Below are positions 21,051 to 36,635 of a stretch of 64,000 bases of DNA, piece by piece; within the stretch, counting starts at the first letter, position 1, and each line of letters begins with the position of its first letter. Source of the DNA: Promethearchaeia archaeon (lineage in GTDB: Archaea; Asgardarchaeota; Lokiarchaeia; Sigyniarchaeales; SOKP01); the NCBI GenBank assembly GCA_029856235.1, contig JAHQWP010000193.1, positions 9,646 to 73,645 on the forward strand, given 5' to 3'. The notes below the pieces were generated by a model that made no database searches, was not told the origin of the DNA, and worked only from the letters and a program-made list of their open reading frames with translations. Both the position numbers and the translations under genes were made by a program.

Positions 21051-21183
21051 TGGATGAATTTTTTAAGGATTCTAGCTCATTGATTAGAAGCTGACGATTT
21101 CGCAAAATCAAGAATAAAAATCTATCAAATCTATTTATAAGACTAGATTTCCTTATTAGTACTTGGGGTTTGTAATCGTTAAA

Positions 21184-21714
21184 ATGTCGAGTTTTAAGTT
21201 AAAAGTTTTACTTACGGGAGCTGCCGCTGTTGGAAAAAAGAGACTTGTTCAGAGGTTTATCAAAAATCGATTTGCTGAAAACTACAAGCTCACCGTTGGA
21301 GTAGACATTCTCACCAAAGATGTAGAATATAAACCGGGCGAAGTAGCAACTCTCTCTATATGGGACATAGGCGGTCAACAAAGGTTCGAATTCATCCGAT
21401 CGACATTTTACAAAGGAGCTGCTGGCGTTTTGTTAGTCTTTGACTTAACAAGGGAGCAAACTTTCGTTGAATCAAAGAAGTGGCTTACAGAAACCCGGCA
21501 ATTTAGCAATGAGAACATTCCATTTGTATTGATTGGAAATAATGTAGATCTCCTCGAAGATGTTGGAGAAGTTATTGATCGAGAAGAAGCGCGAGCTTTT
21601 GCTGAAAAAGAAGGCGGTATTTACATTGAAACTTCAATTAAAACAGGGGCCAATGTAGATGAAGCCTTTAATGAACTCACACGTAGAATAATCGAATCAA
21701 GACATAGTAATTAA
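21184..21714 (+). CDS. Ras/Rab-like small GTPase with non-canonical G1 and G4 motifs
   Basis: G1 is GAAAVGKK and G2 is LTVGVD. G3 is WDIGGQ, G4 is GNNVD and G5 is ETSIKTG. Order and spacing are typical of Ras-superfamily proteins. I prefer ATG 21184 over TTG 21163. Confidence 0.85.
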   Translation: MSSFKLKVLLTGAAAVGKKRLVQRFIKNRFAENYKLTVGVDILTKDVEYKPGEVATLSIWDIGGQQRFEFIRSTFYKGAAGVLLVFDLTREQTFVESKKWLTETRQFSNENIPFVLIGNNVDLLEDVGEVIDREEARAFAEKEGGIYIETSIKTGANVDEAFNELTRRIIESRHSN

Positions 21715-23007: not shown

Positions 23008-25398
23008 ATGCAAACAAGTGAGTCAATTGATCCGTTTTTTACCGAGCCATATGTGGATATCGATGAGTGGCGGGACGATCCTGTACGCCATCGATACATC
23101 CATGGCGGTTTTAAAGGCACCGATGCCAGATTTTCGTTCTATTTCCCACCGAAGGAGCAATACGAAGGCCGGTTCTTCCAGTATATCATGCCAATGTCTG
23201 GGAATGAAAACCTTGTACAGAATCCAAGTTATCCTGATCCTCCCTACGCATTAGATTTTGTCTTCGAGAGTGGCGGTTATTTTGTGGAATCAAACCTAGG
23301 GAGGTTGGACATGTTCCCAGGGGATGATCCCACCATCGCCGGATATAGAACCAGTGCGGCAGTGGCGAAATATTCGCGCGTTTTGGCCTCTGAAATGTAT
23401 AGTCCCCACCGCTCCTATGGTTATGCTTTTGGCGGTAGCGGCGGAGGATATAAGACAATGAGTTGTATAGAAAACACAACCGGTATCTGGGACGGTGTGG
23501 TGCCATTTATTCACGCAACACCAATGGCCATGATCAATGTATTTTCGGTACAGGCTCATGCAATGCGCGTGTTGAATGATAAAATGCCCGCCATCATCGA
23601 TGCAGTAGAACCTGGTGGTAGCGGAGATATGTATGCTAATCTAAATGAAGAAGAACGAGAAGCGCTTACCGAAGTGACTAAGATGGGATTTCCGCCACGA
23701 GCTTGGTTCAATTACAGGAGAATAGCGTTCGGTTACACCGGAGTCTTAACTACGCTCCTTGACCCAATGATTAAATGGGATCCCACATACTTTGAAGATT
23801 TTTGGAAGGAGCCGGGCTATCTCGGTGCGAACCCGCCCCAATCGCTCTTAGACGCGCGGATAAAACACGAAACAACCATAAGCAAGCTTATTATGCCCGA
23901 AGATATCAGGAAAATGGGAGGGTCATTGTCCATATCTGCGGGGCAAGCTGGTAACGTAGTCCCAGCAGGGTTTGAATTAGAAAGCGTGCCTGAAGGTGAC
24001 ATACAGGGGGCCTCAATATACTTGAAAAACGGCAAAGCAGAGGGTTGCGTGGTTTACGCTGTTGCAGCGTTCGATAACATGGTAATGTTAGCCTATGGCG
24101 AAGAAAACTACCAGTTTCTATCAAGTGTCAAGGTGGGTGACAAAGTGCAGATCGACAATTCTAATTATCTCGCTACTCAAACCTATCATCGACATCAGGT
24201 TCCGGCACCGGAATACTATGTCTGGGACCAGTTCCGGGGCGCTGATGGTAAACCGTTGTATCCGCAACGACCCGAGATAATAGGCCCGCTTCATGCGTAT
24301 CAGGGCGCTGGTTCGGTCCAGACTGGCAAGTTTGAGGGCAAGATGATTGTAGTAGAAATGTTAATGGACGAGGCAGCTTATCCTTGGCAAGCCGACTGGT
24401 ATCGCTCGAAAGTAAAAGCCGCATTGGGAGAGAAATTCGATGATAACTATCGGCTCTGGTTCATTGACAATGCAATGCATACTCCACCAGTGATCTCAGC
24501 GTTAGACTCCCATCCAGCAATAACCACGCGAGTTATTCACTATGGTGGTGTGTTGCAGCAAGCACTGCGTGACGTGAGCGCATGGGTTGAAAAAGGCGTG
24601 GCACCCCCAGCAAGTACTACATATAAAGTAGTAGATGGCCAAGTGGAAGTACCTCCCACTGCTGCGGAGCGTAAAGGTATTCAACCAGTGGTCACTCTTG
24701 CAGTAAATGGAAGCGATCGTGCAGATGTCAAGTTCGGGAAGAAACTTAAGTTTTCCGCGGTGATTGAAACACCCCCGGATACTGGTTCGGTAGTTAGCGT
24801 TGAATGGGATTTTGAGGGCAATGGTGATTATCCAATAACTGAGCAACTCAAAGATAGCAAGAGTAAAACTGTGAAGGTGAAAACCACTTATACTTTCGCC
24901 GAGAACGGCATGTACTTTCCTGCAGTGCGTGTATCTTCGCAGAGGGAAGGCAACGCTCAAACACCCCACACAAGAATCCAGAACATCGCTCGCGTGAGGG
25001 TTGTAGTCAGCGGTAAAGAACAACAAGTACCTGAAACTAAGCAATTAATATTTGAATTAAAAGAGAAACGAGCCGATTTGGGAAACATAATTAACAAGTT
25101 CTTTGATACAGTTGGACAACATACTACGGTAGCTCAGGGAAAAGAGTTATCAACCAATGAGATTGGCCCAAGAACTGAACGTTCTACAAGATTCGAAGTT
25201 GTTCCTTCTCCTGGGACAACTTTTTATACGATAAGTTTTGAAGATATAGATTCAGGTATTGGCGTCTTTATTGAAATAGAAATGGAAGTCACAGGATCCT
25301 ATAAAATGATGGCAAAAACCATAAAAAAAGTGTTCTCAAAAAGCATTATAGAAAATGCTACAGAAACTCTCAATAAAATTTTAAAAGAAACGGAGTGA
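23008..25398 (+). CDS. Multidomain serine-hydrolase-like protein (alpha/beta-hydrolase, tannase/feruloyl-esterase-like) with a PKD-like domain and an AT-rich C-terminal extension
   Basis: FGGSGGGYK contains a GxSxG nucleophile elbow. The C-terminal third has a PKD-like VSVEWDFEGNGDY. The gene body at 23040-25020 is markedly GC-rich, while the first ~11 and last ~120 codons have the local AT-rich composition. Confidence 0.55.
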   Translation: MQTSESIDPFFTEPYVDIDEWRDDPVRHRYIHGGFKGTDARFSFYFPPKEQYEGRFFQYIMPMSGNENLVQNPSYPDPPYALDFVFESGGYFVESNLGRLDMFPGDDPTIAGYRTSAAVAKYSRVLASEMYSPHRSYGYAFGGSGGGYKTMSCIENTTGIWDGVVPFIHATPMAMINVFSVQAHAMRVLNDKMPAIIDAVEPGGSGDMYANLNEEEREALTEVTKMGFPPRAWFNYRRIAFGYTGVLTTLLDPMIKWDPTYFEDFWKEPGYLGANPPQSLLDARIKHETTISKLIMPEDIRKMGGSLSISAGQAGNVVPAGFELESVPEGDIQGASIYLKNGKAEGCVVYAVAAFDNMVMLAYGEENYQFLSSVKVGDKVQIDNSNYLATQTYHRHQVPAPEYYVWDQFRGADGKPLYPQRPEIIGPLHAYQGAGSVQTGKFEGKMIVVEMLMDEAAYPWQADWYRSKVKAALGEKFDDNYRLWFIDNAMHTPPVISALDSHPAITTRVIHYGGVLQQALRDVSAWVEKGVAPPASTTYKVVDGQVEVPPTAAERKGIQPVVTLAVNGSDRADVKFGKKLKFSAVIETPPDTGSVVSVEWDFEGNGDYPITEQLKDSKSKTVKVKTTYTFAENGMYFPAVRVSSQREGNAQTPHTRIQNIARVRVVVSGKEQQVPETKQLIFELKEKRADLGNIINKFFDTVGQHTTVAQGKELSTNEIGPRTERSTRFEVVPSPGTTFYTISFEDIDSGIGVFIEIEMEVTGSYKMMAKTIKKVFSKSIIENATETLNKILKETE

Positions 25399-25534: not shown

Positions 25535-25676
25535 TACCAATCGCGGTATCTATCATTCTTTCCTGAGATTTATGGCATCGCTAAACATTAATGAATTGAG
25601 CTATTCAAAAATATATTTCTATCAAGTAAAATTACAGCCAAAAAAAGGAAAAATATATAAAAAAAAATAGAAAGTT

Positions 25677-26864
25677 TTAATCTCGTTGACCTAATATGGT
25701 CGTGGAACAAACGCTAAACGCACCGCCGAGGTTATGAGCCAAACCAATCTTGGCATCGGGTACTTGTCTCCCTTCAGCGCGTCCTTGAACTTGTTTGGCA
25801 ATCTCTGTTAGCATCCTGCAACCCGTACTTCCAATAGGATGACCAAAGCTTTTTAATCCTCCAGATGGGTTTACAGCAGTTTCTCCATCCCAATTGAACG
25901 TACCATTTTTAAGCTCTTCAGCTGCTTGACCCCTATCACAGAATTGTAAATCCTGACAATTTATTAATTCAGTGATCGTAAAACAGTCGTGAACTTCTGC
26001 GGCGTCAATTTCTTTTCGGGGATTGGTAATTCCCGCTTCTTTATAGGCATACTGCGCTGCTTTTATGGTCGAAGGGAACGCTGTAAAGTCTGCTCCGGGT
26101 CCTCCTTGAGGAATGTACCAAGGAAAATTGGTTTGGGCCGAAATCGCGTTGGCTTTAACTAATACATAATCATCTGCATGAGCGTAAGACTCTGCGAGTT
26201 CTGGTGTTGTAAGGATCAACGCAGCTGCTCCGTCCGACATCGCGCAACAATCGAAGCGACCAAGGGGATCAGCAATCATAGGAGCTTTCATCGCAGCCTC
26301 AATTGTAATCGGGCTTCGAAAGTGTGCTTTTGGATGATGAGAGCCGTTCTCGTGATTTTTTACGGCAACTCGAGCAAGATCCTCTTTTGTCCAACCAAAT
26401 TCGTGGAAGCACCTAGTTGCTGCCATCGAAAACATTGCGGGTGCGGAAGGTGTTGGGTACAATGGATGTCCAAATTGTCTGAATCCCGGTAGGCCACTAC
26501 CACCTTCGTCCATGAGTTTCTCCACTCCACAGGCGAGAGCAATATCATATGCGCCAGAGGCAATAGCGAAAGAAGCGTTACGGAACGCGTCCATACCCGA
26601 AGCGCAATAATTTTCCACTCGAGTGGCAGGTTTCCCATCCATTTTAAGGATATCTTCTACCATTGAACCGGAAAGTCCAGTAAAATAGTAAAATATCCCA
26701 ATCCAGCTCGCATCTACCTCGTCCTTGGTGATTCCGGCGTCTTTTAAAGCGCTTTGGAACGCTTCGAAAAGCAGGTCGTATTGCGACTTGTCCCATAGTT
26801 CTCCATATTTTGTCATATCGCAACCGATAATCGCGACTTTGTCTTTAATACCATGTCTTGTCAT
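25677..26864 (-). CDS. Thiolase (SCP-x / archaeal acetoacetyl-CoA thiolase type)
   Basis: The nucleophile motif is VENYCASGMDA. The C-terminal motifs are GGLKSFGHPIGSTGCRM and GLAHNLGG. It is 395 aa. Confidence 0.85.
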   Translation of the reverse strand: MTRHGIKDKVAIIGCDMTKYGELWDKSQYDLLFEAFQSALKDAGITKDEVDASWIGIFYYFTGLSGSMVEDILKMDGKPATRVENYCASGMDAFRNASFAIASGAYDIALACGVEKLMDEGGSGLPGFRQFGHPLYPTPSAPAMFSMAATRCFHEFGWTKEDLARVAVKNHENGSHHPKAHFRSPITIEAAMKAPMIADPLGRFDCCAMSDGAAALILTTPELAESYAHADDYVLVKANAISAQTNFPWYIPQGGPGADFTAFPSTIKAAQYAYKEAGITNPRKEIDAAEVHDCFTITELINCQDLQFCDRGQAAEELKNGTFNWDGETAVNPSGGLKSFGHPIGSTGCRMLTEIAKQVQGRAEGRQVPDAKIGLAHNLGGAFSVCSTTILGQRD

Positions 26865-26879
26865 TTTGCATTACCTCCT

Positions 26880-28325
26880 TTAAGGTCTCCCCCTCACGGG
26901 TCGACATTTCCAATAATAATTTTTAAATTCAGCACCTTCGTGTTCTTTTCGGAAGGTCAGCTCGAGTTTCATCCCAATTTTGACGTTTTCTTCGGGATTT
27001 TCAATTTCAGTCATATTGACGAGCACTCTACCACCACCATCGAGGTCTATTACGCATCGAGGGACGGGTGTGTTGAGATATGCTCCACCAACTAAGTGAT
27101 CGAGGGTATATGTAAAGAGTTCTCCGGTCTTTGCGAGTTTCACGGGTTCCAGTTGATCATCAGCTCTACAGACGCAACAAGCCCTTGCAAGGTCTGGATA
27201 TTGCACGGCTCCGCAATTCTTGCATTTCACACCATACCACTTATAAACTGAGGGAGTATCACGCCAAATTAAGACAGCTGAGCTTTTACGTGTATATCTG
27301 TCCTTTTTGAGTAATTCTTTAGCATCGATGACGCTATTATAATTCTTTAGAAGAGCCATCGATTTTTGGTGACCAATAAATCCCATTCTTCCTTTACCAA
27401 TAGCTTTAACACCATCTTTATCTCGAACTTGCATTAGAATTGCATCAGCACCATCTCCAAACCCAGCCATGATGATTTTGGCATCTAGTTTGGGCCTTCG
27501 TAAGCTGGCAATGAGGAGCATAAAGGGCATTGGTGTCCCCGTATCTCCTATTTGAAAGAATAGGCTATTTTGTGCAACTCCTTGGCCAAACTTCATTATT
27601 TTAGAGATTCTGCTGTGCATTCGAGGGTTATTATAGTAATAAGCTGCAATATCGATGTCTTCAGTAGGATTTAAATTATTACGTTTCAATATTTCACCCA
27701 TTACTTTGGTGATGCTTTCCACGTAAAACTTTGCGTCCATTTTAACTTCAAAAGTTCTGATAAAGTCGTCCTTATCTGCTCTTTTCCACGGTCCAGTCAC
27801 ATTCGCTGAGACGGAATAATAATCATCAATTGAAATTGGAATATTTTCTTCGTCCGCAACGAGTATGGCAGCAGCACCATCTGCAAATCCAAATTCCCAC
27901 ATAGTTGAGGGTTCTGGTTTTCTAGTATCAGCTGCAACTACCAAGATACTATTGATATCTTTGTTAGCCTTGATCGTATCAACAGCTCTAGTTAAGGCTG
28001 ATGTGCCTGCTTTAGTAGAGTCTGTGAAATCTGCGGTAATGATGTCCTCTCTCATATCGAGTACGGTAGCGATTAATGACGCTGAATCCTTTTCGGTATA
28101 GACCTGTGTTGTTGAAGCAAAGAAGATTCCATCAACCGTTTTTGGGTCAATTCCCGCCAAGCAATCAAGTCCGGCTTCTACGGACATTGTCAAGCTGTCC
28201 TCATCTATCATTGCTACTGCTTTAGTCCCAGGAACTGAAGGAAAATCCCATGCTTTCGAAATAAGTTCTCGGGGTAGCATGTATTTAGGTAAATACGCAC
28301 CATAACTTTTAATACCAATTGGCAT
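26880..28325 (-). CDS. HMG-CoA-synthase-like domain (catalytic residues apparently substituted) fused to a DUF35 zinc-ribbon/OB-fold domain
   Basis: The N-terminal ~345 aa are collinear with archaeal HMGCS (IGIKSYGAYLPKY, DEDSLTM, ILVVAADT, GFADGAAAILV). At the Glu/Cys/His positions I read ASTTQ, DSTKAGT and YYNNPRM. The C-terminal ~130 aa are DUF35: CKNCGAVQYP...CCVCRADD, then an OB-fold (GELFTYT..., VKIGMKLELTF). It ends 15 nt upstream of the thiolase gene. Confidence 0.75.
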   Translation of the reverse strand: MPIGIKSYGAYLPKYMLPRELISKAWDFPSVPGTKAVAMIDEDSLTMSVEAGLDCLAGIDPKTVDGIFFASTTQVYTEKDSASLIATVLDMREDIITADFTDSTKAGTSALTRAVDTIKANKDINSILVVAADTRKPEPSTMWEFGFADGAAAILVADEENIPISIDDYYSVSANVTGPWKRADKDDFIRTFEVKMDAKFYVESITKVMGEILKRNNLNPTEDIDIAAYYYNNPRMHSRISKIMKFGQGVAQNSLFFQIGDTGTPMPFMLLIASLRRPKLDAKIIMAGFGDGADAILMQVRDKDGVKAIGKGRMGFIGHQKSMALLKNYNSVIDAKELLKKDRYTRKSSAVLIWRDTPSVYKWYGVKCKNCGAVQYPDLARACCVCRADDQLEPVKLAKTGELFTYTLDHLVGGAYLNTPVPRCVIDLDGGGRVLVNMTEIENPEENVKIGMKLELTFRKEHEGAEFKNYYWKCRPVRGRP

Positions 28326-28520
28326 ATTAAATTTTTACCTCTTATATCTTATAGTTTTGTTATTTGGATATATATATAATTAGTTATATGAATCTCAATT
28401 CTTGAGATTAAATATATTTTGGTTTTTAATTTCGAGGAAAATTCAATTTAACAATTATGTTCAAAAAGGAAGAGTGTAAAAAATTATCACTATAAGGTAG
28501 AAGGATTAAATTTAAAAAAC

Positions 28521-29006
28521 TCAGTCGTTTTCAAATTTCTTTTCTAGAACGGTAATTATTGGTTTGAATCCGACTTTTCCAAACACATCAATTAATTTTT
28601 TATCTCCTAAATAAGCCATATTAATTCTAACGGCGTCGCAACCCCACGATTTTAATATTTGTATGGCTCGATCTGCGAGGATTTTGCCCACTCCTGCCCC
28701 AATGAATTCCCTCTCAGTAGCCCAATTATTTAGGTATCCAATATACTGTCCTAAGTTGCTTTTTACTGCTTCCAGCATACCCATCGACACAACCTGACCG
28801 GTTTTTTTAAGTTCTGCGATTAACGTTATTCGTTTCAAGTTGGGTTTAAATTGTCGTAATCCTGAAGTTTCTCTCCATTTAGATTCGACGAATCCAATAT
28901 TATATTGGCTTTGGAGTTCTTGTAAAATTTTTAAAGTTGCTTTATAATCAGACGTTCTGTAATTCCTTATTATTATATCTTCTTCTTTTAACTTCTCGCT
29001 AGCCAT
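28521..29006 (-). CDS. GNAT family N-acetyltransferase
   Basis: The 161-aa product has the motif TEREFIGAGVGKILADRAI (an R/Q-x-x-G-x-G/A-like acetyl-CoA site). Confidence 0.7.
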   Translation of the reverse strand: MASEKLKEEDIIIRNYRTSDYKATLKILQELQSQYNIGFVESKWRETSGLRQFKPNLKRITLIAELKKTGQVVSMGMLEAVKSNLGQYIGYLNNWATEREFIGAGVGKILADRAIQILKSWGCDAVRINMAYLGDKKLIDVFGKVGFKPIITVLEKKFEND

Positions 29007-29031
29007 TTACCATACACCATTTCCTTAATAA

Positions 29032-30063
29032 TTATGATTTTTTCAAAAGTTTTAAATCAATCCTTTTTGATAATAACTTCTCGTTCGTTACCTCGTCAAT
29101 AATGAAGAAGAGGTATTCTTCTATGTAGGGAATAATCGGCGAGATAAATACCAATTCTTCTTGAGCATCCCAGGTATCAATTGTTTCAATCATTAATTCT
29201 TTCTCAAAATATTCTTTTAGGTGATTGATTCTTACCACTGACCCCTTGATTGTGTGGAGCGAATTATTCTGGACCAGTATCTCTAGTTCTTGGCTATCTT
29301 CTATGATATTGATTTTAAGAATTATAAAGGGTTTTTTATCTACAAAACTTACTTCTCCTTTTATGTTAGGGTCAAATAATTGAATGTTTGAGAAGGTCCC
29401 GTTATAATCTTTACCATAAATATGCGATACATCTATGCCTTTGAAGGCCAAATATGCTATAGCTTTTTGCATTCTTATCGAAGTGGTATCAGAATTCCTT
29501 ATCACATCAGAAAAAAAAGTATTCGTGATTTTTTCAATTGAATTTCTAAGTTCTTTCTTAATAGATACCCCTTTTTCTATGCGTTTCTTAATTTTAGGAG
29601 ATTTAATTACCTCTTCCTTTAAGATCTCAGATTCTATTATTTCAAACAGTTTGTCTTCATATTTATCTTTCACTTCTTGGGTCAAAATTCTAATAAGCTC
29701 GTCGCCAAAAAGTTCAATCTTGTTTGGTAAAGATACTATTATCACTATCGTTTCAGGAGTTTCCTCTTCGAGTCCAGACCTTCTTTTCTCTCTGTTAGAT
29801 TTAGTTAAAAATTTCTTGCCAAAGAAAGTAAAACCTTTAAATTCAAGGTCTATATGATCTAAAGCATCTGATTCATCCAAGCTTAAAAACCAAATTGGAT
29901 GATATTTAATTGGACGCATGAATGCTTTATCGTTTTTGTATTTTTCTTCGGGGAAAATAAGTAATGGCATATGACCTTGAGCTTCGTCAAAATATAACAC
30001 ATAGACTACAGCTAATTCTTCAAGAGGATTTTTTACCGATGACGAATCAAACAAATCACCCAA
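29032..30063 (-). CDS. Hypothetical protein whose N-terminal ~130 aa have a longin/uDENN-like alternation pattern (speculative)
   Basis: It is a long intact ORF of 343 aa. See the findings for the N-terminal pattern. I recognise no enzymatic motif. Confidence 0.45.
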   Translation of the reverse strand: MGDLFDSSSVKNPLEELAVVYVLYFDEAQGHMPLLIFPEEKYKNDKAFMRPIKYHPIWFLSLDESDALDHIDLEFKGFTFFGKKFLTKSNREKRRSGLEEETPETIVIIVSLPNKIELFGDELIRILTQEVKDKYEDKLFEIIESEILKEEVIKSPKIKKRIEKGVSIKKELRNSIEKITNTFFSDVIRNSDTTSIRMQKAIAYLAFKGIDVSHIYGKDYNGTFSNIQLFDPNIKGEVSFVDKKPFIILKINIIEDSQELEILVQNNSLHTIKGSVVRINHLKEYFEKELMIETIDTWDAQEELVFISPIIPYIEEYLFFIIDEVTNEKLLSKRIDLKLLKKS

Positions 30064-30183
30064 AACCTTACCCTTCCAACCAATTTTTTCTGAAATATAC
30101 TATAGATTTAAATAATTCTTTGTCTAAAAAGTTTAATTAAAAAATATGTATTATAATTAATATCATTTTTGAAGTGAGTATTT

Positions 30184-31275
30184 ATGCAAATAACAGATAT
30201 CAAAACATATGTTTTAAAAATGGATTTTAAAGTTAAAATTGGAAGTATGCCGAGACTTCAAGCTAGTGGTGTTTATACAAATCTCAAGACAGACGAAGGA
30301 ATTGATGGATGGGCCTTAACCCATTGGAATCTGAGCAACCTCGCACAAAAGCAGTTTATAGACGAAGCCTTAAGAAAGCTGGTTTTAAATAAGGATCCAT
30401 TTATGGTTGAGGAAATCTTTCACGAAGTATATCAAAACACTAATAGAATTTTGTTTGGAATACCACAAGCTACTTCTGCTATACAGATTGCGTGTTGGGA
30501 TATAATGGGAAAAGCAACTAACCAACCGATTTATAAATTACTCGGTGGTCGTAAGAGAGAGGTTAAGTGTTATGCTTCTATTCTACGCGGGTATAAACCA
30601 AAACCTGCTGTAAAAACCGTTGAGAATGCTGTGAATCCCGAATTGGGAGGGTTTAAAGCAGTGAAATTACGTATAGGAATGGGGGTAGATCAAGACGCAG
30701 CAATTTTGAAGGAAGTTAGAGATGTTTTTCCAGATATCGATATTATGGTTGACGCAAATTCTGCTTATCAATCTGTTAACGACGCTTTGAAAGTAGCAAA
30801 AATTTGTGATAAGTACGATGTTTTATGGTTAGAAGAACCTATACCGACAGATAACTTGAACGGATTAGCAAAGATAAGAGCAAATTCTCCAGTACAAATA
30901 GCTGGTGGTGAAAATGATATGGGTATTTTTCGATTTGAAGACATTCTCTCGCGAGATTGTTTTGATATAATACAACCAGACGTTACCAGATGCGGTGGAT
31001 TTTTACAATTGAAAAAGATCGATGCTATGGCAGAAGTAAAAGGAGTTCAATGTATACCCCACATTTTTGGATTTGGACATATTTTAGCGGCTAATTTGCA
31101 CTTTATCATGGCTTCACGATGTGAATGGTGTGAGTTTCCTTTTTATCCAGAGGAATTCCAATTATTTGAGGAACCAATAAGGATTAAGAATGGAAAAGTG
31201 AAAGCCTTAGAGAAACCTGGGTTAGGTGTAGAGATTGATAAAGAAATGTTTGAAAAAAATGTTTTAAAAACTTAA
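30184..31275 (+). CDS. Enolase-superfamily enzyme (mandelate racemase/muconate lactonizing enzyme family)
   Basis: FKAVKLRIG, IMVDANSAY, LWLEEP, AGGEN and IIQPD mark the metal-ligand and catalytic positions of MR/MLE enzymes. Confidence 0.85.
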   Translation: MQITDIKTYVLKMDFKVKIGSMPRLQASGVYTNLKTDEGIDGWALTHWNLSNLAQKQFIDEALRKLVLNKDPFMVEEIFHEVYQNTNRILFGIPQATSAIQIACWDIMGKATNQPIYKLLGGRKREVKCYASILRGYKPKPAVKTVENAVNPELGGFKAVKLRIGMGVDQDAAILKEVRDVFPDIDIMVDANSAYQSVNDALKVAKICDKYDVLWLEEPIPTDNLNGLAKIRANSPVQIAGGENDMGIFRFEDILSRDCFDIIQPDVTRCGGFLQLKKIDAMAEVKGVQCIPHIFGFGHILAANLHFIMASRCEWCEFPFYPEEFQLFEEPIRIKNGKVKALEKPGLGVEIDKEMFEKNVLKT

Positions 31276-31294
31276 CAAATGTTTTTTTAATAGT

Positions 31295-31325
31295 ATTTTC
31301 ATTGAAATCAGACGCTGAATTTACC
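31295..31325. repeat. 31-nt perfect direct repeat, copy 1 (ATTTTCATTGAAATCAGACGCTGAATTTACC)
   Basis: It is identical to 32561-32591, read directly from the sequence. It contains a small imperfect hairpin, AAATCAG-acg-CTGAATTT. Confidence 0.9.
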
Positions 31326-31399
31326 CTTCATGAAAAATATGTAAAAATCGAGCTTTAAAAGATTTAAAATCAGTCTTATTAACATCAGATTAAAGTTTA

Positions 31400-32326
31400 T
31401 CACATTATTTCTCTGCTAAAAATGTGAATAGGATCCTCAATGTCAGGACTTTCTATTACTATAACCATTTTATTGATACCTAAATTTTCAGCTTCTTTTA
31501 TTTTTTCTTTAATCTCTTCAGGAGTTCCTATGAATAGATATTTCATATCAGATTTTAAGATATTCCTTTCTTTTCTTATCCTTTCAACTGTTTCTTGACT
31601 GCTTACTATTGTAAAATTTGTGAAAAGAGAGATCTCAAACTCAGAAGGATCGCGGTTGTATTTTCTTACTTTTTCTTTAACTAGTGAAATATTCTCCATT
31701 CTCTTTTTCTGTTGCGAAAGTTCAAATGAAGCTAGATTTATTCCATCAGCTTCTCGGCATGCAATATCAATCATCCTCTTACCATTTGTCCCTATAACTA
31801 GTTGTGGGTAAGGTTTCTGGATTGACTTAGGAAAGTTCCGATGTTTTTCAAGTTTCCAAAATCTTCCATCAAAGTTTGTTTCATCTTCCGTAAATATCTT
31901 CTTATAGATAGTCAATGATTCCTCAAACTCATCAACTCTTCTTTTAGGAGAATGAAAAGGGTAACCATATGCCTTATATTCTTCCTCATACCAACCTGCT
32001 CCTAACCACATTAAAACTCGACCATTAGAAATGTGATCCAAAGTCAATATCATTTTTGCTAAATAAGCGGGATTACGAAAAGAGTTACACAATACAATTT
32101 GCCCTAATTTTATATTATTTGTTTCTACTGCTAAGGCTCCCAATAGCGTCATAACCTCTAAAAACGTTTCTTTTTTTTCTTGAGTTTCATCAAAACCTAG
32201 TAAATGGTCGGTAACATGAATAGAATCAAAATCTAAGTTTTCAATTCTTAATGTTAAGTCTCTAATTTCAGAATATGTACGAGAAGAAGGATTTCTTACA
32301 CAATAACCAAACTTCATAGTATTCAA
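31400..32326 (-). CDS. LLM-class (luciferase-like) flavin/F420-dependent oxidoreductase
   Basis: SIHVTDHL, LGAGWYEEEYKAYGYPF and the TIM-barrel length (308 aa) are typical of LLM-class oxidoreductases. Confidence 0.8.
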   Translation of the reverse strand: MNTMKFGYCVRNPSSRTYSEIRDLTLRIENLDFDSIHVTDHLLGFDETQEKKETFLEVMTLLGALAVETNNIKLGQIVLCNSFRNPAYLAKMILTLDHISNGRVLMWLGAGWYEEEYKAYGYPFHSPKRRVDEFEESLTIYKKIFTEDETNFDGRFWKLEKHRNFPKSIQKPYPQLVIGTNGKRMIDIACREADGINLASFELSQQKKRMENISLVKEKVRKYNRDPSEFEISLFTNFTIVSSQETVERIRKERNILKSDMKYLFIGTPEEIKEKIKEAENLGINKMVIVIESPDIEDPIHIFSREIM

Positions 32327-32560
32327 AAAATAGTGACTATTTTAAGTTTTGTTATTTTTGTTAAAAAATTCTTTCCCTTTTTTATTAAATAGAACTTGGT
32401 AAAAAATGCAGTAAAATTCCTGAAAATTCTTCAATTCTATAAAAAAGTTTTTACTTTCTCATTTATCAAAAGTTCAGATAATTAAGGACAGATAGCAAGT
32501 AGGTTCAAATTCCTCATTTTTAATAAATTGACAGAAGTTCAATATTGTAACTTTCACTAA

Positions 32561-32591
32561 ATTTTCATTGAAATCAGACGCTGAATTTACC
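32561..32591. repeat. 31-nt perfect direct repeat, copy 2
   Basis: It is identical to 31295-31325. Together the two copies bracket the LLM oxidoreductase gene and about 230 bp of non-coding DNA. Confidence 0.9.
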
Positions 32592-32735
32592 TTTCTAATA
32601 ATTATCAAATTTTTTAATTGATTAATGAAGAAAAGAAAAAATAATTGTAAAAAATAGGTAATTTATTTGCTCCCATATATCCCAAAAATATCAAAGGAAA
32701 ATAATAAGAATTCATATATTCAAGTTTAACTTCTT

Positions 32736-33200
32736 TTATAGGTTCTGCTTCAGGTTCTGAGCAAACTCCTCCGCATGTTTGAGGTCTTCAGCGTTAGGTC
32801 TACCTTTATTCATACCCCCGAAATATTTCATGAAACTATTAGTATTAAAACCTTTACACGCAAATTCATCAATTATCGTGTAACCTTTCGATTGCAATTT
32901 TTCCCTTAACAGCGAGTGATCTTCGGCGACTTTAGCTTTTCCCATCATTGCACTTGTAGAAAAAATGAATGCTTTCTTGTCGGTGACAGGTGATAGTTTA
33001 TCGGCAAGGTCAAGCAGAGATTCATGGTGTTTTGCACCATATATCCCCGAGCCAATTCCTACTAGACCATAATCTTGAAGTTCTTTAGGGTTTATTTGCT
33101 GTGGTGTTTTTATTTGTGCATCAAGAACTTTTGCGAAGACCTTAGCGATTTTCTCAGTATTTTTGTGATGATATGAAAGTAAAACCAATAGAGATTTCAT
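32736..33200 (-). CDS. Flavodoxin-family protein
   Basis: The 154-aa product has an N-terminal LVLLSYHHKNTEKIA (FMN phosphate loop-like) and GIGSGIYG. Confidence 0.65.
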   Translation of the reverse strand: MKSLLVLLSYHHKNTEKIAKVFAKVLDAQIKTPQQINPKELQDYGLVGIGSGIYGAKHHESLLDLADKLSPVTDKKAFIFSTSAMMGKAKVAEDHSLLREKLQSKGYTIIDEFACKGFNTNSFMKYFGGMNKGRPNAEDLKHAEEFAQNLKQNL

Positions 33201-33433
33201 TGGTAGTCTAGCATTCTCTTATATTTAAGTCTTGTTTTTATTCTATTTCTACGAATCCTACATTTTTTAACTTATTTTACAACAAACAGAGCCTCGATTT
33301 CAATGATTTATCATTGTTTCAATAACTTTTTGTTTAGTACATCAGTTTTAATAATATAATACAAAATAACTTATTTAGCAGTAATAGATTTAATGTAACA
33401 TTAGACAAATGAGATTTGGAGCTCTTTTAATAC

Positions 33434-36400
33434 ATGAAATTTGGTAGTAAGCTAGAATTGAGTTTTATCCCCTCTTCCTATTGGAATGAGCCCTTAAGTG
33501 GATTCAAATTAAGTTCCGAAGGACCAGATTTGCCTAAAGATTCTAATTTTTTTGTTTTATGGATTCCTTCAAATAACTCAGAAGACATTCTTTCGAAGCA
33601 CATAACTGAAATCTTTCCAAGGATACCTGTTAACAAGCTTATTAGCTGCAATATAAACTTGGCATTTCCTCCCTTGGAAATAGCAGATAATTCTCAAGAG
33701 AAGATTTCGTTAAATTTCTATGAAATATCATTGTGCATAGCAAAGATCATACCTATTGGTCCTGCTGTTAAGTTACTTTTTCAAATGGAAATTGTAGATA
33801 ATGTCGATCGTGGGATAAAGCATTACAGCAATTCAATTAAGACTTGGTCTTTTCTAACAAAATTAGTGTTCGAACTATTGAACAAAGGGCAGTTCATTCC
33901 TAGCTTGGAAACTAAAAACAATAAAGGGTATAATGGCAAGTGGAATTTACTACTAAAATCTCAAAACGATAAAGATCGACTTCAAACAATATTGAAAAGA
34001 GCTTCTTGGTCGGCTTTTTGTATTCCCATAAATTTCATTCAATTTAATGGGGGATACAAAACTAATGGATTATGGCACCCATCCTATTTATTTTCATTCT
34101 TTATAGATACTATTGGAGATTATCTGATACGATCAACATTAAATAAAATGAAGTTCCGTACTTTTAACGAATTTTATAGTAAAGAATTAAAAAAAGAGGA
34201 CAGTTCAGACTATAGGCCAGGTTGGGATTATAAATTTCTTAAATCCCTTATTACGAAGGATTCGAATTTTAAAATACAATCATTCCATGAAACTATTTTA
34301 CCAGCGTTGATTAAAAATTGGACTCAATCAGCGAGAGGATTTACGTTAAAGCATGGTTTTGTATTCAACTTAGAGTTAAAGTATCCAAAAACTCCAAAAA
34401 ACGATTGGCTGTTAGTTTTTTATGTTTCTTTTCAAGATGGAGCACAAAATATTCCTTTACACGAACTATGGGAAGAAAACAACCAAAAGAAACTAGAAAA
34501 GCTAAAGATCATTGATAGCAAAGGGGAATTTTTAGAGATAATTTTAAGAGCTATTGGTACAGCTTCAAAAGTTTTCCCCCCCATAAAAAGAGCTTTAGTA
34601 GAAAATCTTCAAGATGAAATTTCTCTTACTTCATCTGAAGTCATTGATTTTCTAAAATACCCTAAAGATTTATTAATACAAAGTGGATTTAACGTTATTC
34701 TCCCGGAAGTCTTCAGAAGAGATGGAAAACAGAGGTTATCAGCTAAACTCATTATTCGTTCAAACAGTAGTATTAAAACAAAAGAAGGTGTTTTCCAAAG
34801 TTTGCCTTCAATCTTCGATGTCCATTCAATGCTTGATTTCAAATGGGAAGCAACAATCGAAGGAAAAAGTATTTCGGATGAAGCATTTAAAGATTTAATC
34901 AATTTAGATGAATCTTTAATTAACATGGACGGAAAATGGATCTTAGTAGATCCACAATCAATAGCAGATTTTAAACAATCAAAAACCCCCGAGTTTGAAA
35001 ACTACATGGATGTGCTTAAAGTTGGTTTGCTCGGGAAGATACAATTACGGGAAAATGGTACTGAATACGATGTGATTATCGAAGGAGAATTCAACGATAT
35101 TATCAGTAATTTACAGTCAGTAAAATCTTTTGAAGATATTCCATGCCCATCATCATTTAACGGCACTTTAAGAGATTATCAACAAGAAGGTCTCACATGG
35201 ATGGGCAACATGACAAAGTTCAATTTTGGATTATGCTTAGCAGATGATATGGGTCTTGGTAAAACTATTCAGGTGATCGCCTTTCTATGCTATCTTAAGA
35301 AAAATTATCCTGAAAAGCCTGGAAGCGTAATCGTTGTATGCCCAACCTCAATTTTATTTAATTGGCATCGAGAAATAAAGAAGTTTGCCCCCGATTTAGA
35401 CGTATTGCTCCATTACGGACCTTCTCGGATTAAGGACGCATCAGACATACCAGAAATTATTAAACCACACAGAATTATCCTCACATCTTATGGAACGCTA
35501 AGAAACGATATTGATTTATTGGAATCCATCAATTTTAGCGGAATCATCGTTGATGAAAGCCAAAATATAAAAAATTATACTTCACAACAGTCTAAAGCTA
35601 TAAATAAGCTCAGAGGGCAATTCAAAATCTGTCTAAGCGGCACTCCAATTGAGAATCGTTTGCTCGAATTATGGTCACTTTTTAATTTCTTAAATATTGG
35701 TCTTCTAGGGAAGAGAAAGGAGTTTCATAACAGATATATCATCCCAATTGAACGCTTTCAAAATCAAGATGCCATTGAGAAATTAAGGTTAATCATTGCG
35801 CCTTTCATCTTACGGCGCGTAAAATCTGATAAGACCGTCATTAAAGATCTACCTGATAAAAACGAAATGAAAATTATCGTCGATTTAAGCGAAACGCAAG
35901 TTAAATTATACAGAGAACTCGTAGATAACACTCTGAAAGATATTGCCGATATGTCTTCAGATAAAAGAAAAAAGAGGGGAATAGTCCTAGCTCTATTAGT
36001 AAAACTAAAACAGATTTGTAATCATCCTTCTCAATACCTGAAACTTGATATGGAATCATTAGAATTAGAGAATAATTTGCAAGAATTCGTATCTCAATCA
36101 CAAAAGCTAGAACGACTGATCGAAATGACCGATGAGGTTCTACTGAACGGAGAAAAAGTTTTAATATTTACTCAATTCACGCAAATGGGAGACATTCTAA
36201 AAAGTGTCCTTGAACAGAAATACAACTTTGAGATTCTCTACTTCCATGGAGGGGTACCAGAAAATAAAAGAAGGGAAATCATTGATCAGTTTCAATCAAA
36301 CGATTTAGAAAGCCCTCCAATATTAATTTTATCGTTAAGAGCCGGTGGAACGGGGTTAAACCTTACTCAGGGAACAACAGTTATACATATAGATAGGTGG

Positions 36401-36631
36401 TGGAATCCCGCAGTAGAAGACCAAGCAACAGATAGAGCTTATCGAATTGGTCAAAAATCGATTGTAAATGTGTATAAATTTATTACAAAAGGAACAATTG
36501 AAGAAAAAATCGACAATCTTTTGGAAGAAAAGCGCGAATTGGCTGATGCGATTGTAGCTTCTACAGGAGAATCTTGGATTTCAGACTTAAATGATGATAA
36601 ATTACGGAATTTGTTAAATTTAGGTGATTGA
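33434..36631 (+). CDS. SNF2-family helicase/ATPase with a ~560-aa N-terminal extension
   Basis: The helicase motifs are LADDMGLGKT (I), IIVDESQNIKN (II), LSGTPIENRL (III), LRAGGTGLNLT (V) and DRWWNPAVEDQATDRAYRIGQ (VI). Confidence 0.9.
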   Translation: MKFGSKLELSFIPSSYWNEPLSGFKLSSEGPDLPKDSNFFVLWIPSNNSEDILSKHITEIFPRIPVNKLISCNINLAFPPLEIADNSQEKISLNFYEISLCIAKIIPIGPAVKLLFQMEIVDNVDRGIKHYSNSIKTWSFLTKLVFELLNKGQFIPSLETKNNKGYNGKWNLLLKSQNDKDRLQTILKRASWSAFCIPINFIQFNGGYKTNGLWHPSYLFSFFIDTIGDYLIRSTLNKMKFRTFNEFYSKELKKEDSSDYRPGWDYKFLKSLITKDSNFKIQSFHETILPALIKNWTQSARGFTLKHGFVFNLELKYPKTPKNDWLLVFYVSFQDGAQNIPLHELWEENNQKKLEKLKIIDSKGEFLEIILRAIGTASKVFPPIKRALVENLQDEISLTSSEVIDFLKYPKDLLIQSGFNVILPEVFRRDGKQRLSAKLIIRSNSSIKTKEGVFQSLPSIFDVHSMLDFKWEATIEGKSISDEAFKDLINLDESLINMDGKWILVDPQSIADFKQSKTPEFENYMDVLKVGLLGKIQLRENGTEYDVIIEGEFNDIISNLQSVKSFEDIPCPSSFNGTLRDYQQEGLTWMGNMTKFNFGLCLADDMGLGKTIQVIAFLCYLKKNYPEKPGSVIVVCPTSILFNWHREIKKFAPDLDVLLHYGPSRIKDASDIPEIIKPHRIILTSYGTLRNDIDLLESINFSGIIVDESQNIKNYTSQQSKAINKLRGQFKICLSGTPIENRLLELWSLFNFLNIGLLGKRKEFHNRYIIPIERFQNQDAIEKLRLIIAPFILRRVKSDKTVIKDLPDKNEMKIIVDLSETQVKLYRELVDNTLKDIADMSSDKRKKRGIVLALLVKLKQICNHPSQYLKLDMESLELENNLQEFVSQSQKLERLIEMTDEVLLNGEKVLIFTQFTQMGDILKSVLEQKYNFEILYFHGGVPENKRREIIDQFQSNDLESPPILILSLRAGGTGLNLTQGTTVIHIDRWWNPAVEDQATDRAYRIGQKSIVNVYKFITKGTIEEKIDNLLEEKRELADAIVASTGESWISDLNDDKLRNLLNLGD

Positions 36632-36635
36632 ATAG

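What the first reader, a model, noticed from the sequence alone, without database searches (positions are those of the whole stretch)
25677..28325. Thiolase partnered with an HMG-CoA-synthase-like/DUF35 fusion that appears catalytically dead
Archaea are known to make acetoacetyl-CoA and HMG-CoA with a thiolase/HMGCS/DUF35 complex in which DUF35 is the scaffold. Here the HMGCS-like and DUF35 parts form one 481-aa chain, 15 nt upstream of a thiolase that retains its nucleophile (NYCASG). When I align by eye to archaeal HMGCS (VATESAFDNSKP...FACIAGT...HQP), this protein reads FASTTQVYTEKD...DSTKAGT...YNNP. The Glu, Cys and His of the catalytic triad therefore seem to be replaced by Thr, Thr and Asn. 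That would make it a pseudo-enzyme scaffold for the thiolase rather than the mevalonate-pathway HMGCS. The pair is also GC-enriched relative to its neighbours.
Basis: partly seen in the sequence, partly recalled or inferred. Interest (0 to 1): 0.6.

Follow-up and report, generated by a model that had tools for sequence, protein, structure and literature searches.

The report
Thiolase with dead HMG-CoA-synthase/DUF35 partner
An Asgard archaeon carries a transcribed two-gene operon for a working thiolase and a partner protein that is a catalytically dead HMG-CoA synthase fused to its DUF35 scaffold; this partner type was shown in 2026 in a bacterium to support only thiolytic cleavage, so databases that call it "HMG-CoA synthase" are misleading.

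Summary
Window 26880-28325(-) encodes a 481-aa HMGCS-like/DUF35 fusion. A 15-nt spacer (AGGAGG...) separates it from a 395-aa SCP2-type thiolase at 25677-26864(-).

Computed alignments and a confident AlphaFold model (pLDDT 95.5; TM 0.92 to archaeal HMGCS 6ESQ) place T72/T104/Y230/D261 at the HMGCS catalytic tetrad E82/C114/H238/N270. The thiolase keeps Cys87 (CxS), H292-D-C-F and G341-H-P.

The pseudo-enzyme reading holds, but the arrangement is not new. None of the 150 best representatives of the fused family (bacteria and archaea) has the tetrad. The family forms one clade, with PhlA as sister. A P. fluorescens member was shown in 2026 to make no HMG-CoA but to cleave acetoacetyl-CoA.

New here is the Asgard clade:
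- The proteins are 69-94% identical across 64 loci.
- The thiolase lies directly downstream in 59 of 60 loci.
- dN/dS is 0.05-0.1.
- Sediment metatranscriptome contigs cover exactly the two genes and cross the spacer.

The GC enrichment occurs in all 42 loci tested and reflects protein composition, not recent transfer.

The cultured relative MK-D1 lists a separate HMGCS gene in its mevalonate cluster.

Verdict: new member of a known kind.

The parts
27396..28325 (-). HMGCS-like (thiolase-fold) domain of the fusion protein, residues 1-310. Catalytically dead: T72/T104/Y230/D261 stand where HMGCS has E/C/H/N.
   Evidence: NF003274 at 162.6 bits, below the 244 cutoff. phmmer alignments to PhlA and 6esq_I. 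MAFFT tetrad columns. AF2 pLDDT 95.5, and Foldseek 6esq_I TMt 0.92 at rmsd 1.7. dN/dS 0.05-0.085.
27246..27395 (-). Linker, residues 311-360. Helical, and the least conserved part of the chain.
   Evidence: AF2 secondary structure. dN 2-3 times that of the flanking domains.
26880..27245 (-). DUF35 module, residues 361-481 plus the stop codon. It has a 4-Cys zinc ribbon (C368, C371, C383, C386) and an OB fold.
   Evidence: PF12172 at residues 361-390 and PF01796 at residues 395-459. Match to 6esq_E DUF35 at 41.5 bits. The four Cys are invariant in 60/60 Asgard orthologs.
26865..26879 (-). 15-nt intercistronic spacer, AGGAGGTAATGCAAA, with a Shine-Dalgarno-like AGGAGG. RNA contigs cross it.
   Evidence: Sequence. 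X5 contig 26716-26883, X13 contig 26635-26925 and X16 contig 26799-26925 span it.
25677..26864 (-). SCP2/archaeal-type thiolase, 395 aa, with an intact catalytic set: Cys87 (CxS), His292-Asp-Cys294-Phe (HDxF) and Gly341-His342-Pro (GHx).
   Evidence: NF004810 at 503.9 bits, above the 403 cutoff. 6esq_A at 218 bits. Motif positions. The motifs are invariant in 47/47 Asgard orthologs.
25638..25676 (-). T-rich tract directly after the thiolase stop codon (T9, T5, T7 runs). It is a likely archaeal terminator (inferred).
   Evidence: Sequence read. RNA contig coverage stops before this region.
28326..28520 (-). AT-rich upstream intergenic region that presumably holds the promoter (inferred). The RNA contig ends at 28329, 4 nt upstream of the ATG.
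   Evidence: Sequence. X5 contig 26863-28329, with no RNA contig on 28341-33676.

Best explanation
The two genes form a bicistronic operon for a heteromeric thiolase complex.

The thiolase is the only catalyst. It has the Cys87 nucleophile, the HDCF motif and the GHP motif. It carries out reversible thiolysis or Claisen condensation of acetoacetyl-CoA, or of another short 3-ketoacyl-CoA.

The 481-aa partner is a pseudo-enzyme. Its HMGCS-fold domain has lost the whole Glu-Cys-His-Asn tetrad. It is covalently fused to the DUF35 zinc-ribbon/OB module, which in the solved archaeal (6ESQ), PhlACB and MucABC complexes staples the HMGCS-like dimer to the thiolase dimer.

The partner therefore most likely acts as a scaffold. 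It would keep the thiolase soluble and correctly shaped and help build the interface chamber where CoA binds. It would not make HMG-CoA.

In Asgard archaea the complex most likely serves as the housekeeping acetoacetyl-CoA/3-ketoacyl-CoA thiolase of butyrate-type fermentation or beta-oxidation. It may also supply acetoacetyl-CoA to a separately encoded HMGCS.

Shown here: the gene anatomy, loss of the tetrad, retention of the thiolase motifs, the fold, family membership, purifying selection, conserved adjacency and transcription.

Inferred: physical complex formation, the substrate and the physiological direction.
For: Tetrad loss:
- Pairwise and multiple alignments agree.
- Across 60 Asgard orthologs the columns read T / L,T,I / Y / D.
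- None of the 150 best family representatives reads ECHN.

Fold: AF2 pLDDT 95.5 and pTM 0.94 for the whole chain. Best PDB matches are HMGCS of 6ESQ (TMt 0.92), PhlA (0.88) and MucA (0.88).

Thiolase:
- CxS, HDxF and GHx are invariant in 47/47 orthologs.
- The closest solved relative is the archaeal acetoacetyl-CoA thiolase 6esq_A (218 bits).

Phylogeny: the dead fused family is one clade (SH-aLRT 100) with PhlA as sister (100). It is separate from active HMGCS, whether fused or unfused.

Precedent:
- PfACAT/HMGS-DUF35 has the same architecture and the same motif pattern. [quoted passage not shown]
- PhlA and PhlB are structural only (PMC6392133).
- The archaeal thiolase alone is insoluble and the HMGS alone is inactive.

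Conservation: the thiolase lies directly downstream in 59/60 Asgard loci. dN/dS is 0.05-0.11 for the fusion and 0.02-0.06 for the thiolase.

Expression: metatranscriptome contigs cover 25728-28329 and cross the spacer. None lie on the upstream neighbours.

Physiology: Imachi et al. 2020 list 3-ketoacyl-CoA thiolase among the catabolic genes conserved and monophyletic across Asgard phyla, and assign it to butyrate fermentation. Whether that gene is this one is not shown.
Against: - No biochemistry exists for any archaeal member.
- The Asgard protein is only about 30-40% identical to bacterial family members. The P. fluorescens protein itself was not in my alignments.
- The former active-site stretch is exceptionally conserved. 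ASTTQVYTEK is invariant in the 25-sequence alignment A1, and E78, R135 and D149 are at least 90% conserved across the family. That is more than a passive scaffold obviously needs, so the domain may bind a ligand or have another role.
- No beta-oxidation or butyrate genes lie next to the pair in the window, so the physiological role rests on analogy.
- The metatranscriptome is known only as assembled contigs, and DNA carry-over cannot be fully excluded.
Confidence: 0.72

Rival explanations
1. The dead HMGCS-like domain is not a mere scaffold. It has gained a new ligand-binding, regulatory or catalytic role. Alternatively, the complex acts on a specialised 3-ketoacyl-CoA, such as an aromatic, branched or longer-chain substrate, rather than acetoacetyl-CoA.
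For: - The HMGCS-like domain is the most constrained part of the chain (dN/dS 0.05-0.085).
- T72-K79 is invariant in the 25-sequence Asgard alignment A1.
- E78, R135 and D149 are at least 90% conserved family-wide but absent from active HMGCS.
- Some family members are fused to SCP2 lipid-binding and SDR domains (P0227, P0250).
- An earlier-scan note places a family member in an indoleacetate-type degradation operon (unchecked lead).
Against: - The position of the lost nucleophile varies (L, T or I) even within Asgard orthologs.
- No alternative conserved Cys, Ser or His cluster was found. A Cys two positions downstream occurs in only about a dozen of the 150 representatives and never in Asgard.
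- The one tested member showed plain acetoacetyl-CoA thiolysis.
Confidence: 0.15
2. The pair is the condensing (anabolic) module of an ACP-independent archaeal fatty-acid synthesis route of the Sulfolobus ketothiolase/DUF35 type. It would run in the Claisen direction, coupled to reductases encoded elsewhere.
For: Schmerling et al. (bioRxiv 10.1101/2024.07.05.601840) describe fatty-acid synthesis in S. acidocaldarius. They report that multiple ketothiolase/DUF35 pairs are conserved in 67% of 62 Asgard genomes, at 3.8 pairs per genome on average, and suggest these may support fatty-acid synthesis.
Against: - That system uses stand-alone DUF35 proteins, not HMGCS-like fusions.
- No ketoacyl-CoA reductase, dehydratase or enoyl reductase lies within 10 kb in the window. 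The two related loci inspected show none either.
- The tested bacterial fusion complex gave no condensation product from acetyl-CoA.
Confidence: 0.07
3. It is the organism's real mevalonate-pathway HMG-CoA synthase and works with non-canonical catalytic residues.
For: - JGI and NCBI name it hydroxymethylglutaryl-CoA synthase or a family protein.
- No other HMGCS homolog lies in the window or within 10 kb of 64 related loci.
Against: - There is no Cys at or near the nucleophile position, and the only Cys in the domain is C55.
- The quadruple tetrad mutant of the archaeal enzyme is inactive, and so is the tetrad-less PfHMGS-DUF35.
- The score is below both HMGCS equivalog cutoffs.
- The protein clades apart from active HMGCS.
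- The cultured Lokiarchaeon MK-D1 lists a separate K01641/arCOG01767 gene inside its IDI-IPK-MVK-HMGR cluster.
Confidence: 0.03
4. It is a CoA-independent Friedel-Crafts C-acyltransferase of the PhlACB/MucABC type, acting in secondary metabolism.
For: PhlA is the best sequence match in the PDB (77.7 bits). It is also the sister of the family in the tree.
Against: - PhlC and MucB lack the HDxF motif. This thiolase has HDCF, invariant in 47/47 orthologs.
- The thiolase is much closer to the archaeal acetoacetyl-CoA thiolase (218 bits) than to PhlC (89.6 bits).
- No PKS or NRPS genes are nearby.
Confidence: 0.03

Closest known systems
PfACAT/HMGS-DUF35 complex of Pseudomonas fluorescens (Nat Commun 2026, PMC12960953)
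   Same: - The HMGS-like domain is fused to DUF35 and lacks the E-C-H-N tetrad.
- The adjacent thiolase keeps the catalytic Cys, HDxF and GHx.
- No PKS or NRPS genes are nearby.
- The window protein falls in the same large clade of about 470-aa tetrad-less fusions.
   Different: - This is an archaeal (Asgard) clade, only about 30-40% identical to the bacterial representatives.
- It is near-universal, strongly conserved and transcribed in Asgard archaea. It does not look like an 'evolutionary intermediate that lost its primary function'.
- The P. fluorescens sequence itself was not available for direct comparison.
[quoted passage not shown]
   Same: - All three modules are present.
- The HMGCS-fold domain superposes at TMt 0.92 and rmsd 1.7 A.
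- That thiolase is the closest solved relative of this one (218 bits).
- The DUF35 matches 6esq_E.
   Different: - The HMGCS module is dead here (T/T/Y/D instead of E/C/H/N), so no channelled HMG-CoA synthesis is possible.
- HMGCS and DUF35 form one chain.
- Sequence identity to the active HMGCS is only about 20-23%.
PhlACB (P. protegens, 5M3K/5MG5) and MucABC (S. macacae, 9VBO) acyltransferases
   Same: - The HMGS-like subunit has no catalytic residues and serves structurally.
- PhlA is the sister of this family in the tree and the best sequence match in the PDB.
   Different: - Those thiolase subunits lost HDxF and acylate small aromatic or tetramic acceptors.
- Their DUF35 is a separate chain.
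- They sit in PKS/NRPS clusters.
Active HMGCS-DUF35 fusions of Bathyarchaeia, Aenigmatarchaeota, Nitrososphaeria and others
   Same: They have the same domain order and similar length, about 480-510 aa.
   Different: They are 45-60% identical to the M. thermolithotrophicus HMGCS and fall in the active-HMGCS clade. The fusion to DUF35 therefore appears to have arisen at least twice, or to predate the inactivation.

Membership tests
Archaeal HMG-CoA synthase (EC 2.3.3.10; NCBIfam NF003274 / TIGR00748) | Score at or above the curated equivalog cutoff | tested here: not met
   NF003274 scores 162.6 bits against a cutoff of 244. TIGR00748 scores 104.8 against 353.35.
Archaeal HMG-CoA synthase (EC 2.3.3.10; NCBIfam NF003274 / TIGR00748) | Catalytic tetrad Glu82-Cys114-His238-Asn270 (M. 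thermolithotrophicus numbering) | tested here: not met
   The columns read T72/T104/Y230/D261 in both the phmmer and MAFFT alignments. No Cys lies near the nucleophile column.
Archaeal HMG-CoA synthase (EC 2.3.3.10; NCBIfam NF003274 / TIGR00748) | HMGCS/KAS-III thiolase fold | tested here: met
   AF2 pLDDT 95.5. Foldseek match to 6esq_I at TMt 0.92 and rmsd 1.7 A.
Tetrad-less HMGS-DUF35 fusion with ACAT partner (PfACAT/HMGS-DUF35 type) | One chain with an N-terminal HMGS-like domain and a C-terminal DUF35 (zinc ribbon plus OB fold) | tested here: met
   Pfam, NCBIfam and PDB domain matches. The whole-chain model has pTM 0.94.
Tetrad-less HMGS-DUF35 fusion with ACAT partner (PfACAT/HMGS-DUF35 type) | Loss of E-C-H-N in the HMGS part | tested here: met
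   None of the 150 family representatives reads ECHN.
Tetrad-less HMGS-DUF35 fusion with ACAT partner (PfACAT/HMGS-DUF35 type) | Adjacent thiolase that keeps the catalytic Cys (CxS), HDxF and GHx | tested here: met
   C87-A-S89, H292-D-C-F and G341-H-P. These are invariant in 47/47 orthologs. The thiolase is adjacent in 59/60 loci.
Tetrad-less HMGS-DUF35 fusion with ACAT partner (PfACAT/HMGS-DUF35 type) | Common descent with the characterised member | tested here: inconclusive
   The window protein sits inside a clade of 84 tetrad-less fusions from bacteria and archaea (SH-aLRT 100). The P. fluorescens sequence was not in hand to confirm that it lies in that clade.
Tetrad-less HMGS-DUF35 fusion with ACAT partner (PfACAT/HMGS-DUF35 type) | Cleaves acetoacetyl-CoA thiolytically and makes no HMG-CoA | not testable with these tools
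   This needs a biochemical assay of the purified Asgard complex.
PhlACB/MucABC Friedel-Crafts acyltransferase | Thiolase subunit lacks the HDxF motif and has a remodelled acceptor pocket | tested here: not met
   HDCF is present and invariant. PhlC scores 89.6 bits against 218 for the archaeal thiolase.
PhlACB/MucABC Friedel-Crafts acyltransferase | Embedded in a PKS or NRPS biosynthetic cluster | tested here: not met
   The neighbours are a GNAT, an unknown protein, an enolase-superfamily protein, an LLM oxidoreductase, an OYE and a tannase-like hydrolase.
BbsAB benzoylsuccinyl-CoA thiolase | Scores at or above the equivalog cutoffs for BbsA and BbsB | tested here: not met
   BbsB NF053628 scores 161 bits against a cutoff of 750. 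BbsA NF053627 scores 31.5 against 250.
DUF35 (PF01796 OB_ChsH2_C + PF12172 zf-ChsH2) | OB-fold domain above the gathering score, plus a four-Cys zinc ribbon | tested here: met
   PF01796 scores 40.8 against 27.1. PF12172 scores 18 against 23.2, below its cutoff. However, C368, C371, C383 and C386 are invariant in 60/60 orthologs.

The most novel reading that the evidence does not exclude
Asgard archaea may have split the ancestral archaeal thiolase/HMGCS/DUF35 channelling complex into two parts.
- This near-universal, highly conserved complex keeps the only archaeal-type acetoacetyl-CoA thiolase, clamped to a dead HMGCS-DUF35 chain.
- The real HMGCS sits without a thiolase in the mevalonate cluster, as the MK-D1 gene table suggests.

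The dead domain, whose former active-site stretch is invariant among the Asgard sequences aligned, would then be more than a scaffold. It could be a gate or sensor that partitions acetoacetyl-CoA between fermentation (butyrate) and isoprenoid lipid synthesis. It could also dock the separate HMGCS.
Probability: 0.2. Interest if true: 0.6.

Novelty: new member of a known kind. Interest (0 to 1): 0.35.

Why it matters
- Annotation. JGI, and some NCBI records, name this protein "hydroxymethylglutaryl-CoA synthase" or a family protein. [quoted passage not shown] It cannot be that enzyme.
- Distribution. The 2026 bacterial finding of a tetrad-less HMGS-DUF35 partner for an active thiolase extends to an ancient family that spans both domains. 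In Asgard archaea the family is conserved, under strong purifying selection and transcribed in sediments. That argues against the published view of such complexes as evolutionary leftovers awaiting a new job.
- Lipid divide. It leaves open where Asgard isoprenoid synthesis gets its acetoacetyl-CoA and HMG-CoA. That bears on the 'lipid divide' discussion, but it is not a new kind of system.

Tried and rejected
The decisive test, whether another HMGCS lies elsewhere in the genome, was therefore not run.
2. The look-up of encoding contigs for the window's own protein: not on record.
3. tblastn of M. thermolithotrophicus HMGCS against the window and against 970 kb of 65 Asgard loci: it hit only the fusion gene itself.
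4. The search for homologous proteins with the canonical HMGCS: the top 120 hits were all methanogens.
5. A length-filter trick, using an 830-aa concatenated query scored on residues 1-349: it recovered active HMGCS-DUF35 fusions in Bathyarchaeia, Aenigmatarchaeota, Nitrososphaeria and others. None of the top 120 was labelled Asgard.
6. First AlphaFold run with a shallow 25-sequence Asgard alignment: poor (pLDDT 53). It was replaced by a 136-sequence alignment (pLDDT 95.5).
7. Recent horizontal transfer as the cause of the GC enrichment: rejected. The enrichment is present in 42/42 Asgard loci and lies mainly in codon positions 1 and 2.
8. BbsAB, Ltp2 and PhlC membership: rejected on scores and motifs.
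9. Literature searches for an explicit description of the Asgard or archaeal dead fusion: none found. The Vogeli 2018 PNAS paper is not held.
10. A DUF35 hit in the Andalucia paper turned out to be DUF3501 and is irrelevant.
Full report
**Observation**

One is a 481-aa ORF at 26880..28325 and the other a 395-aa ORF at 25677..26864. They are separated by 15 nt, AGGAGGTAATGCAAA, which contains a Shine-Dalgarno-like AGGAGG.

Domain matches for the 481-aa protein:
- Residues 2-303 match archaeal HMG-CoA synthase, but only at 162.6 bits against a curated cutoff of 244 (NF003274).
- Residues 361-459 match the zinc ribbon and OB fold of DUF35/ChsH2.

The 395-aa protein is an SCP2/archaeal-type thiolase. 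It scores 503.9 bits against NF004810 (cutoff 403). Its closest solved relative is the acetoacetyl-CoA thiolase of the M. thermolithotrophicus thiolase/HMGCS/DUF35 complex (6esq_A, 218 bits).

A Ras-family GTPase in the window and the names of the homologs place the window in an Asgard (Lokiarchaeia/Promethearchaeota-like) genome of about 30-34% GC.

**Catalytic residues**

The HMGCS tetrad of the M. thermolithotrophicus enzyme is E82/C114/H238/N270 (PMC12960953 and PMC6392133). A phmmer alignment to 6esq_I and an independent 153-sequence MAFFT alignment agree on four replacements:
- E82 -> T72
- C114 -> T104
- H238 -> Y230
- N270 -> D261

His is replaced by Tyr rather than Asn. The only cysteine in the N-terminal domain is C55.

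An AlphaFold2 model built on 136 family sequences is confident (pLDDT 95.5, pTM 0.94). Its best PDB matches are the HMGCS subunit of 6ESQ (TMt 0.92, rmsd 1.7 A), then PhlA and MucA at 0.87-0.88.

The thiolase keeps everything it needs: C87-A-S89 (CxS), H292-D-C294-F (HDxF) and G341-H342-P.

**What it belongs to**

Searching 1.84 billion representatives gave 322 clusters at E<1e-30. Nearly all of the best 150 are about 470-aa fusions of the same architecture.
- None of the 150 has E-C-H-N.
- The Glu column is Thr in 126 of them and the Cys column is Leu in 106.
- Named members come from Helarchaeota, Dehalococcoidia, Actinomycetota and Deltaproteobacteria.

In a maximum-likelihood tree of the HMGCS-like domain, active HMGCS, both unfused and DUF35-fused, form one group. 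The 84 tetrad-less fusions form another group (SH-aLRT 100), with PhlA as sister (100). The Asgard sequences form a tight clade nested inside the tetrad-less group, next to a Helarchaeota sequence and then a Dehalococcoidia cluster.

Exactly this architecture was characterised in January 2026. The P. fluorescens PfACAT/HMGS-DUF35 complex has a fused, tetrad-less HMGS-DUF35 and an ACAT with Cys, HDxF and GHx. It makes neither HMG-CoA nor acetoacetyl-CoA from acetyl-CoA, but it cleaves acetoacetyl-CoA. The H294Y mutation in HDxF nearly abolishes that activity. About 1,000 bacterial loci were counted (PMC12960953).

PhlA of the PhlACB acyltransferase is likewise structural only (PMC6392133).

**The Asgard clade**
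- Sixty-three loci from species-representative genomes carry orthologs 69-94% identical. Two more came from the look-up of encoding contigs.
- The thiolase lies directly downstream on the same strand in 59 of the 60 loci whose contig continues.
- In 47 thiolase orthologs, all nine motif residues are invariant.
- In 60 fusion orthologs, T72 and Y230 are invariant and D261 is nearly so. The former nucleophile column varies (L 42, T 17, I 1), as expected for a position with no chemical role.
- Against the closest relatives, dN/dS is 0.06-0.11 for the fusion. It is lowest in the dead domain (0.05-0.085), and 0.02-0.06 for the thiolase. The dead domain is therefore maintained, not decaying.
- The stretch ASTTQVYTEK around the lost Glu is invariant in the 25-sequence Asgard alignment.

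**Transcription**

A marine-sediment metatranscriptome (X5) comes from the same sample as the best DNA run (X1). Its contigs cover 25728-28329.
- One 1,467-nt contig spans 26863-28329.
- Another spans 26716-26883 and crosses the spacer.
- It has none on 28341-33676, while the DNA run covers everything.

Two other sediment metatranscriptomes hold contigs that cross the spacer, from related strains. These are assembled contigs, so depth is not quantitative and DNA carry-over cannot be formally excluded. The gene-bounded pattern still supports a bicistronic mRNA.

**GC enrichment**

The enrichment is real in the window (0.415 and 0.464 against 0.342). It also occurs in all 42 Asgard loci tested, where the fusion averages 0.37, the thiolase 0.41 and the flanks 0.30. 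It sits mostly in codon positions 1 and 2. It therefore reflects the constrained, Gly/Ala-rich composition of these enzymes, perhaps with some codon bias. It does not indicate recent acquisition.

**Is there a real HMGCS elsewhere?**

Indirect evidence:
- No second HMGCS homolog lies in the window or within 10 kb of the 65 related loci.
- The gene table of the cultured Lokiarchaeon MK-D1 (4.43 Mb, 31.1% GC) lists a K01641/COG3425/arCOG01767 'HMG-CoA synthase', DSAG12_01214. It sits inside an IDI-IPK-MVK-HMGR-decarboxylase cluster.
- The same table separately lists a K07068 (DUF35-type) gene followed by an arCOG01278 thiolase, DSAG12_00435/00436. Both loci are expressed (PMC7015854 supplement).
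- The second pair has the gene order of the window's operon. That it is the ortholog is my inference. The held table is also cut at roughly 60% of the genome.
- Active HMGCS-DUF35 fusions exist in other archaeal phyla.

Earlier-scan notes are unchecked leads. They describe complementary 'half-dead' complexes in Thermoplasmata and a diverged HMGCS-DUF35 in Hodarchaeales.

**Mechanism proposed**

The thiolase is the sole catalyst. The fused partner supplies, in one chain, the HMGCS-like dimer and the DUF35 staple, which in the three solved complexes hold the thiolase dimers and close the interface chamber.

In the archaeal complex the isolated thiolase is insoluble and the isolated HMGS is inactive, so a structural dependence is plausible.

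Without an exergonic HMGCS step to pull the reaction, the complex is expected to favour thiolysis, as was found for the P. fluorescens enzyme. In vivo it could be pulled towards acetoacetyl-CoA by downstream reductases or by a separate HMGCS.

Imachi et al. list 3-ketoacyl-CoA thiolase among the catabolic genes conserved and monophyletic across Asgard phyla, and assign it to butyrate fermentation. That fits, but whether it is the same gene was not verified.

**Verdict**

The system is a new (archaeal, Asgard-wide) member of a kind described in 2026. Its main value is to correct annotation and to frame the question of how Asgard archaea feed their mevalonate pathway.

Noticed in passing
window 23008-25398 (+): A 796-aa ORF has the highest GC in the neighbourhood (0.458). 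It has only weak tannase/feruloyl-esterase (alpha/beta-hydrolase) and PKD matches. The X5 metatranscriptome covers it. In MK-D1 the gene after the K07068-thiolase pair is also an alpha/beta hydrolase.
   Followed up: partly
window 28521-30063 (-): An unknown 343-aa protein followed by a 161-aa GNAT acetyltransferase sits directly upstream of the operon. The same unknown+GNAT pair recurs 2-4 kb upstream of the fusion gene in a Promethearchaeota locus and a Hodarchaeota locus (L001 6934-8465, L002 5032-6565). No RNA contigs lie on it in X5.
   Followed up: partly
window 21163-21714 (+): A Ras/Roc/Arf-type small GTPase (PF00071, 155 bits) is a eukaryotic-signature protein and supports an Asgard origin for the window. 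Arf or Ras genes also lie near the operon in L001 and L002.
   Followed up: no
window 33434-37562 (+): A 1065-aa SNF2-family helicase with DUF3670 is followed by a 308-aa SWIM zinc-finger protein.
   Followed up: no
proteins P0227 (722 aa) and P0250 (911 aa): Some members of the tetrad-less HMGS-DUF35 family carry extra C-terminal regions. By eye these look like SCP2-type sterol-carrier repeats and, in P0250, a short-chain dehydrogenase region. This hints at lipid or acyl-CoA handling.
   Followed up: no
loci L002, L030, L034, L046, L061; also L022/L035/L046: Several Asgard genomes carry a second thiolase paralog (74-78% identical) just downstream of the operon. One MAG (DZ2S.252) has three copies of the fusion gene on three contigs.
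   Followed up: no
locus L003: A 5.3-kb contig with a 94%-identical copy of the operon is filed under the bacterial name 'Candidatus Deferrimicrobium sp.'. It is probably an Asgard contig binned into the wrong MAG.
   Followed up: no
locus L049: This is the only locus where the thiolase is not directly downstream. It lies about 1.3 kb away on the opposite strand.
   Followed up: no
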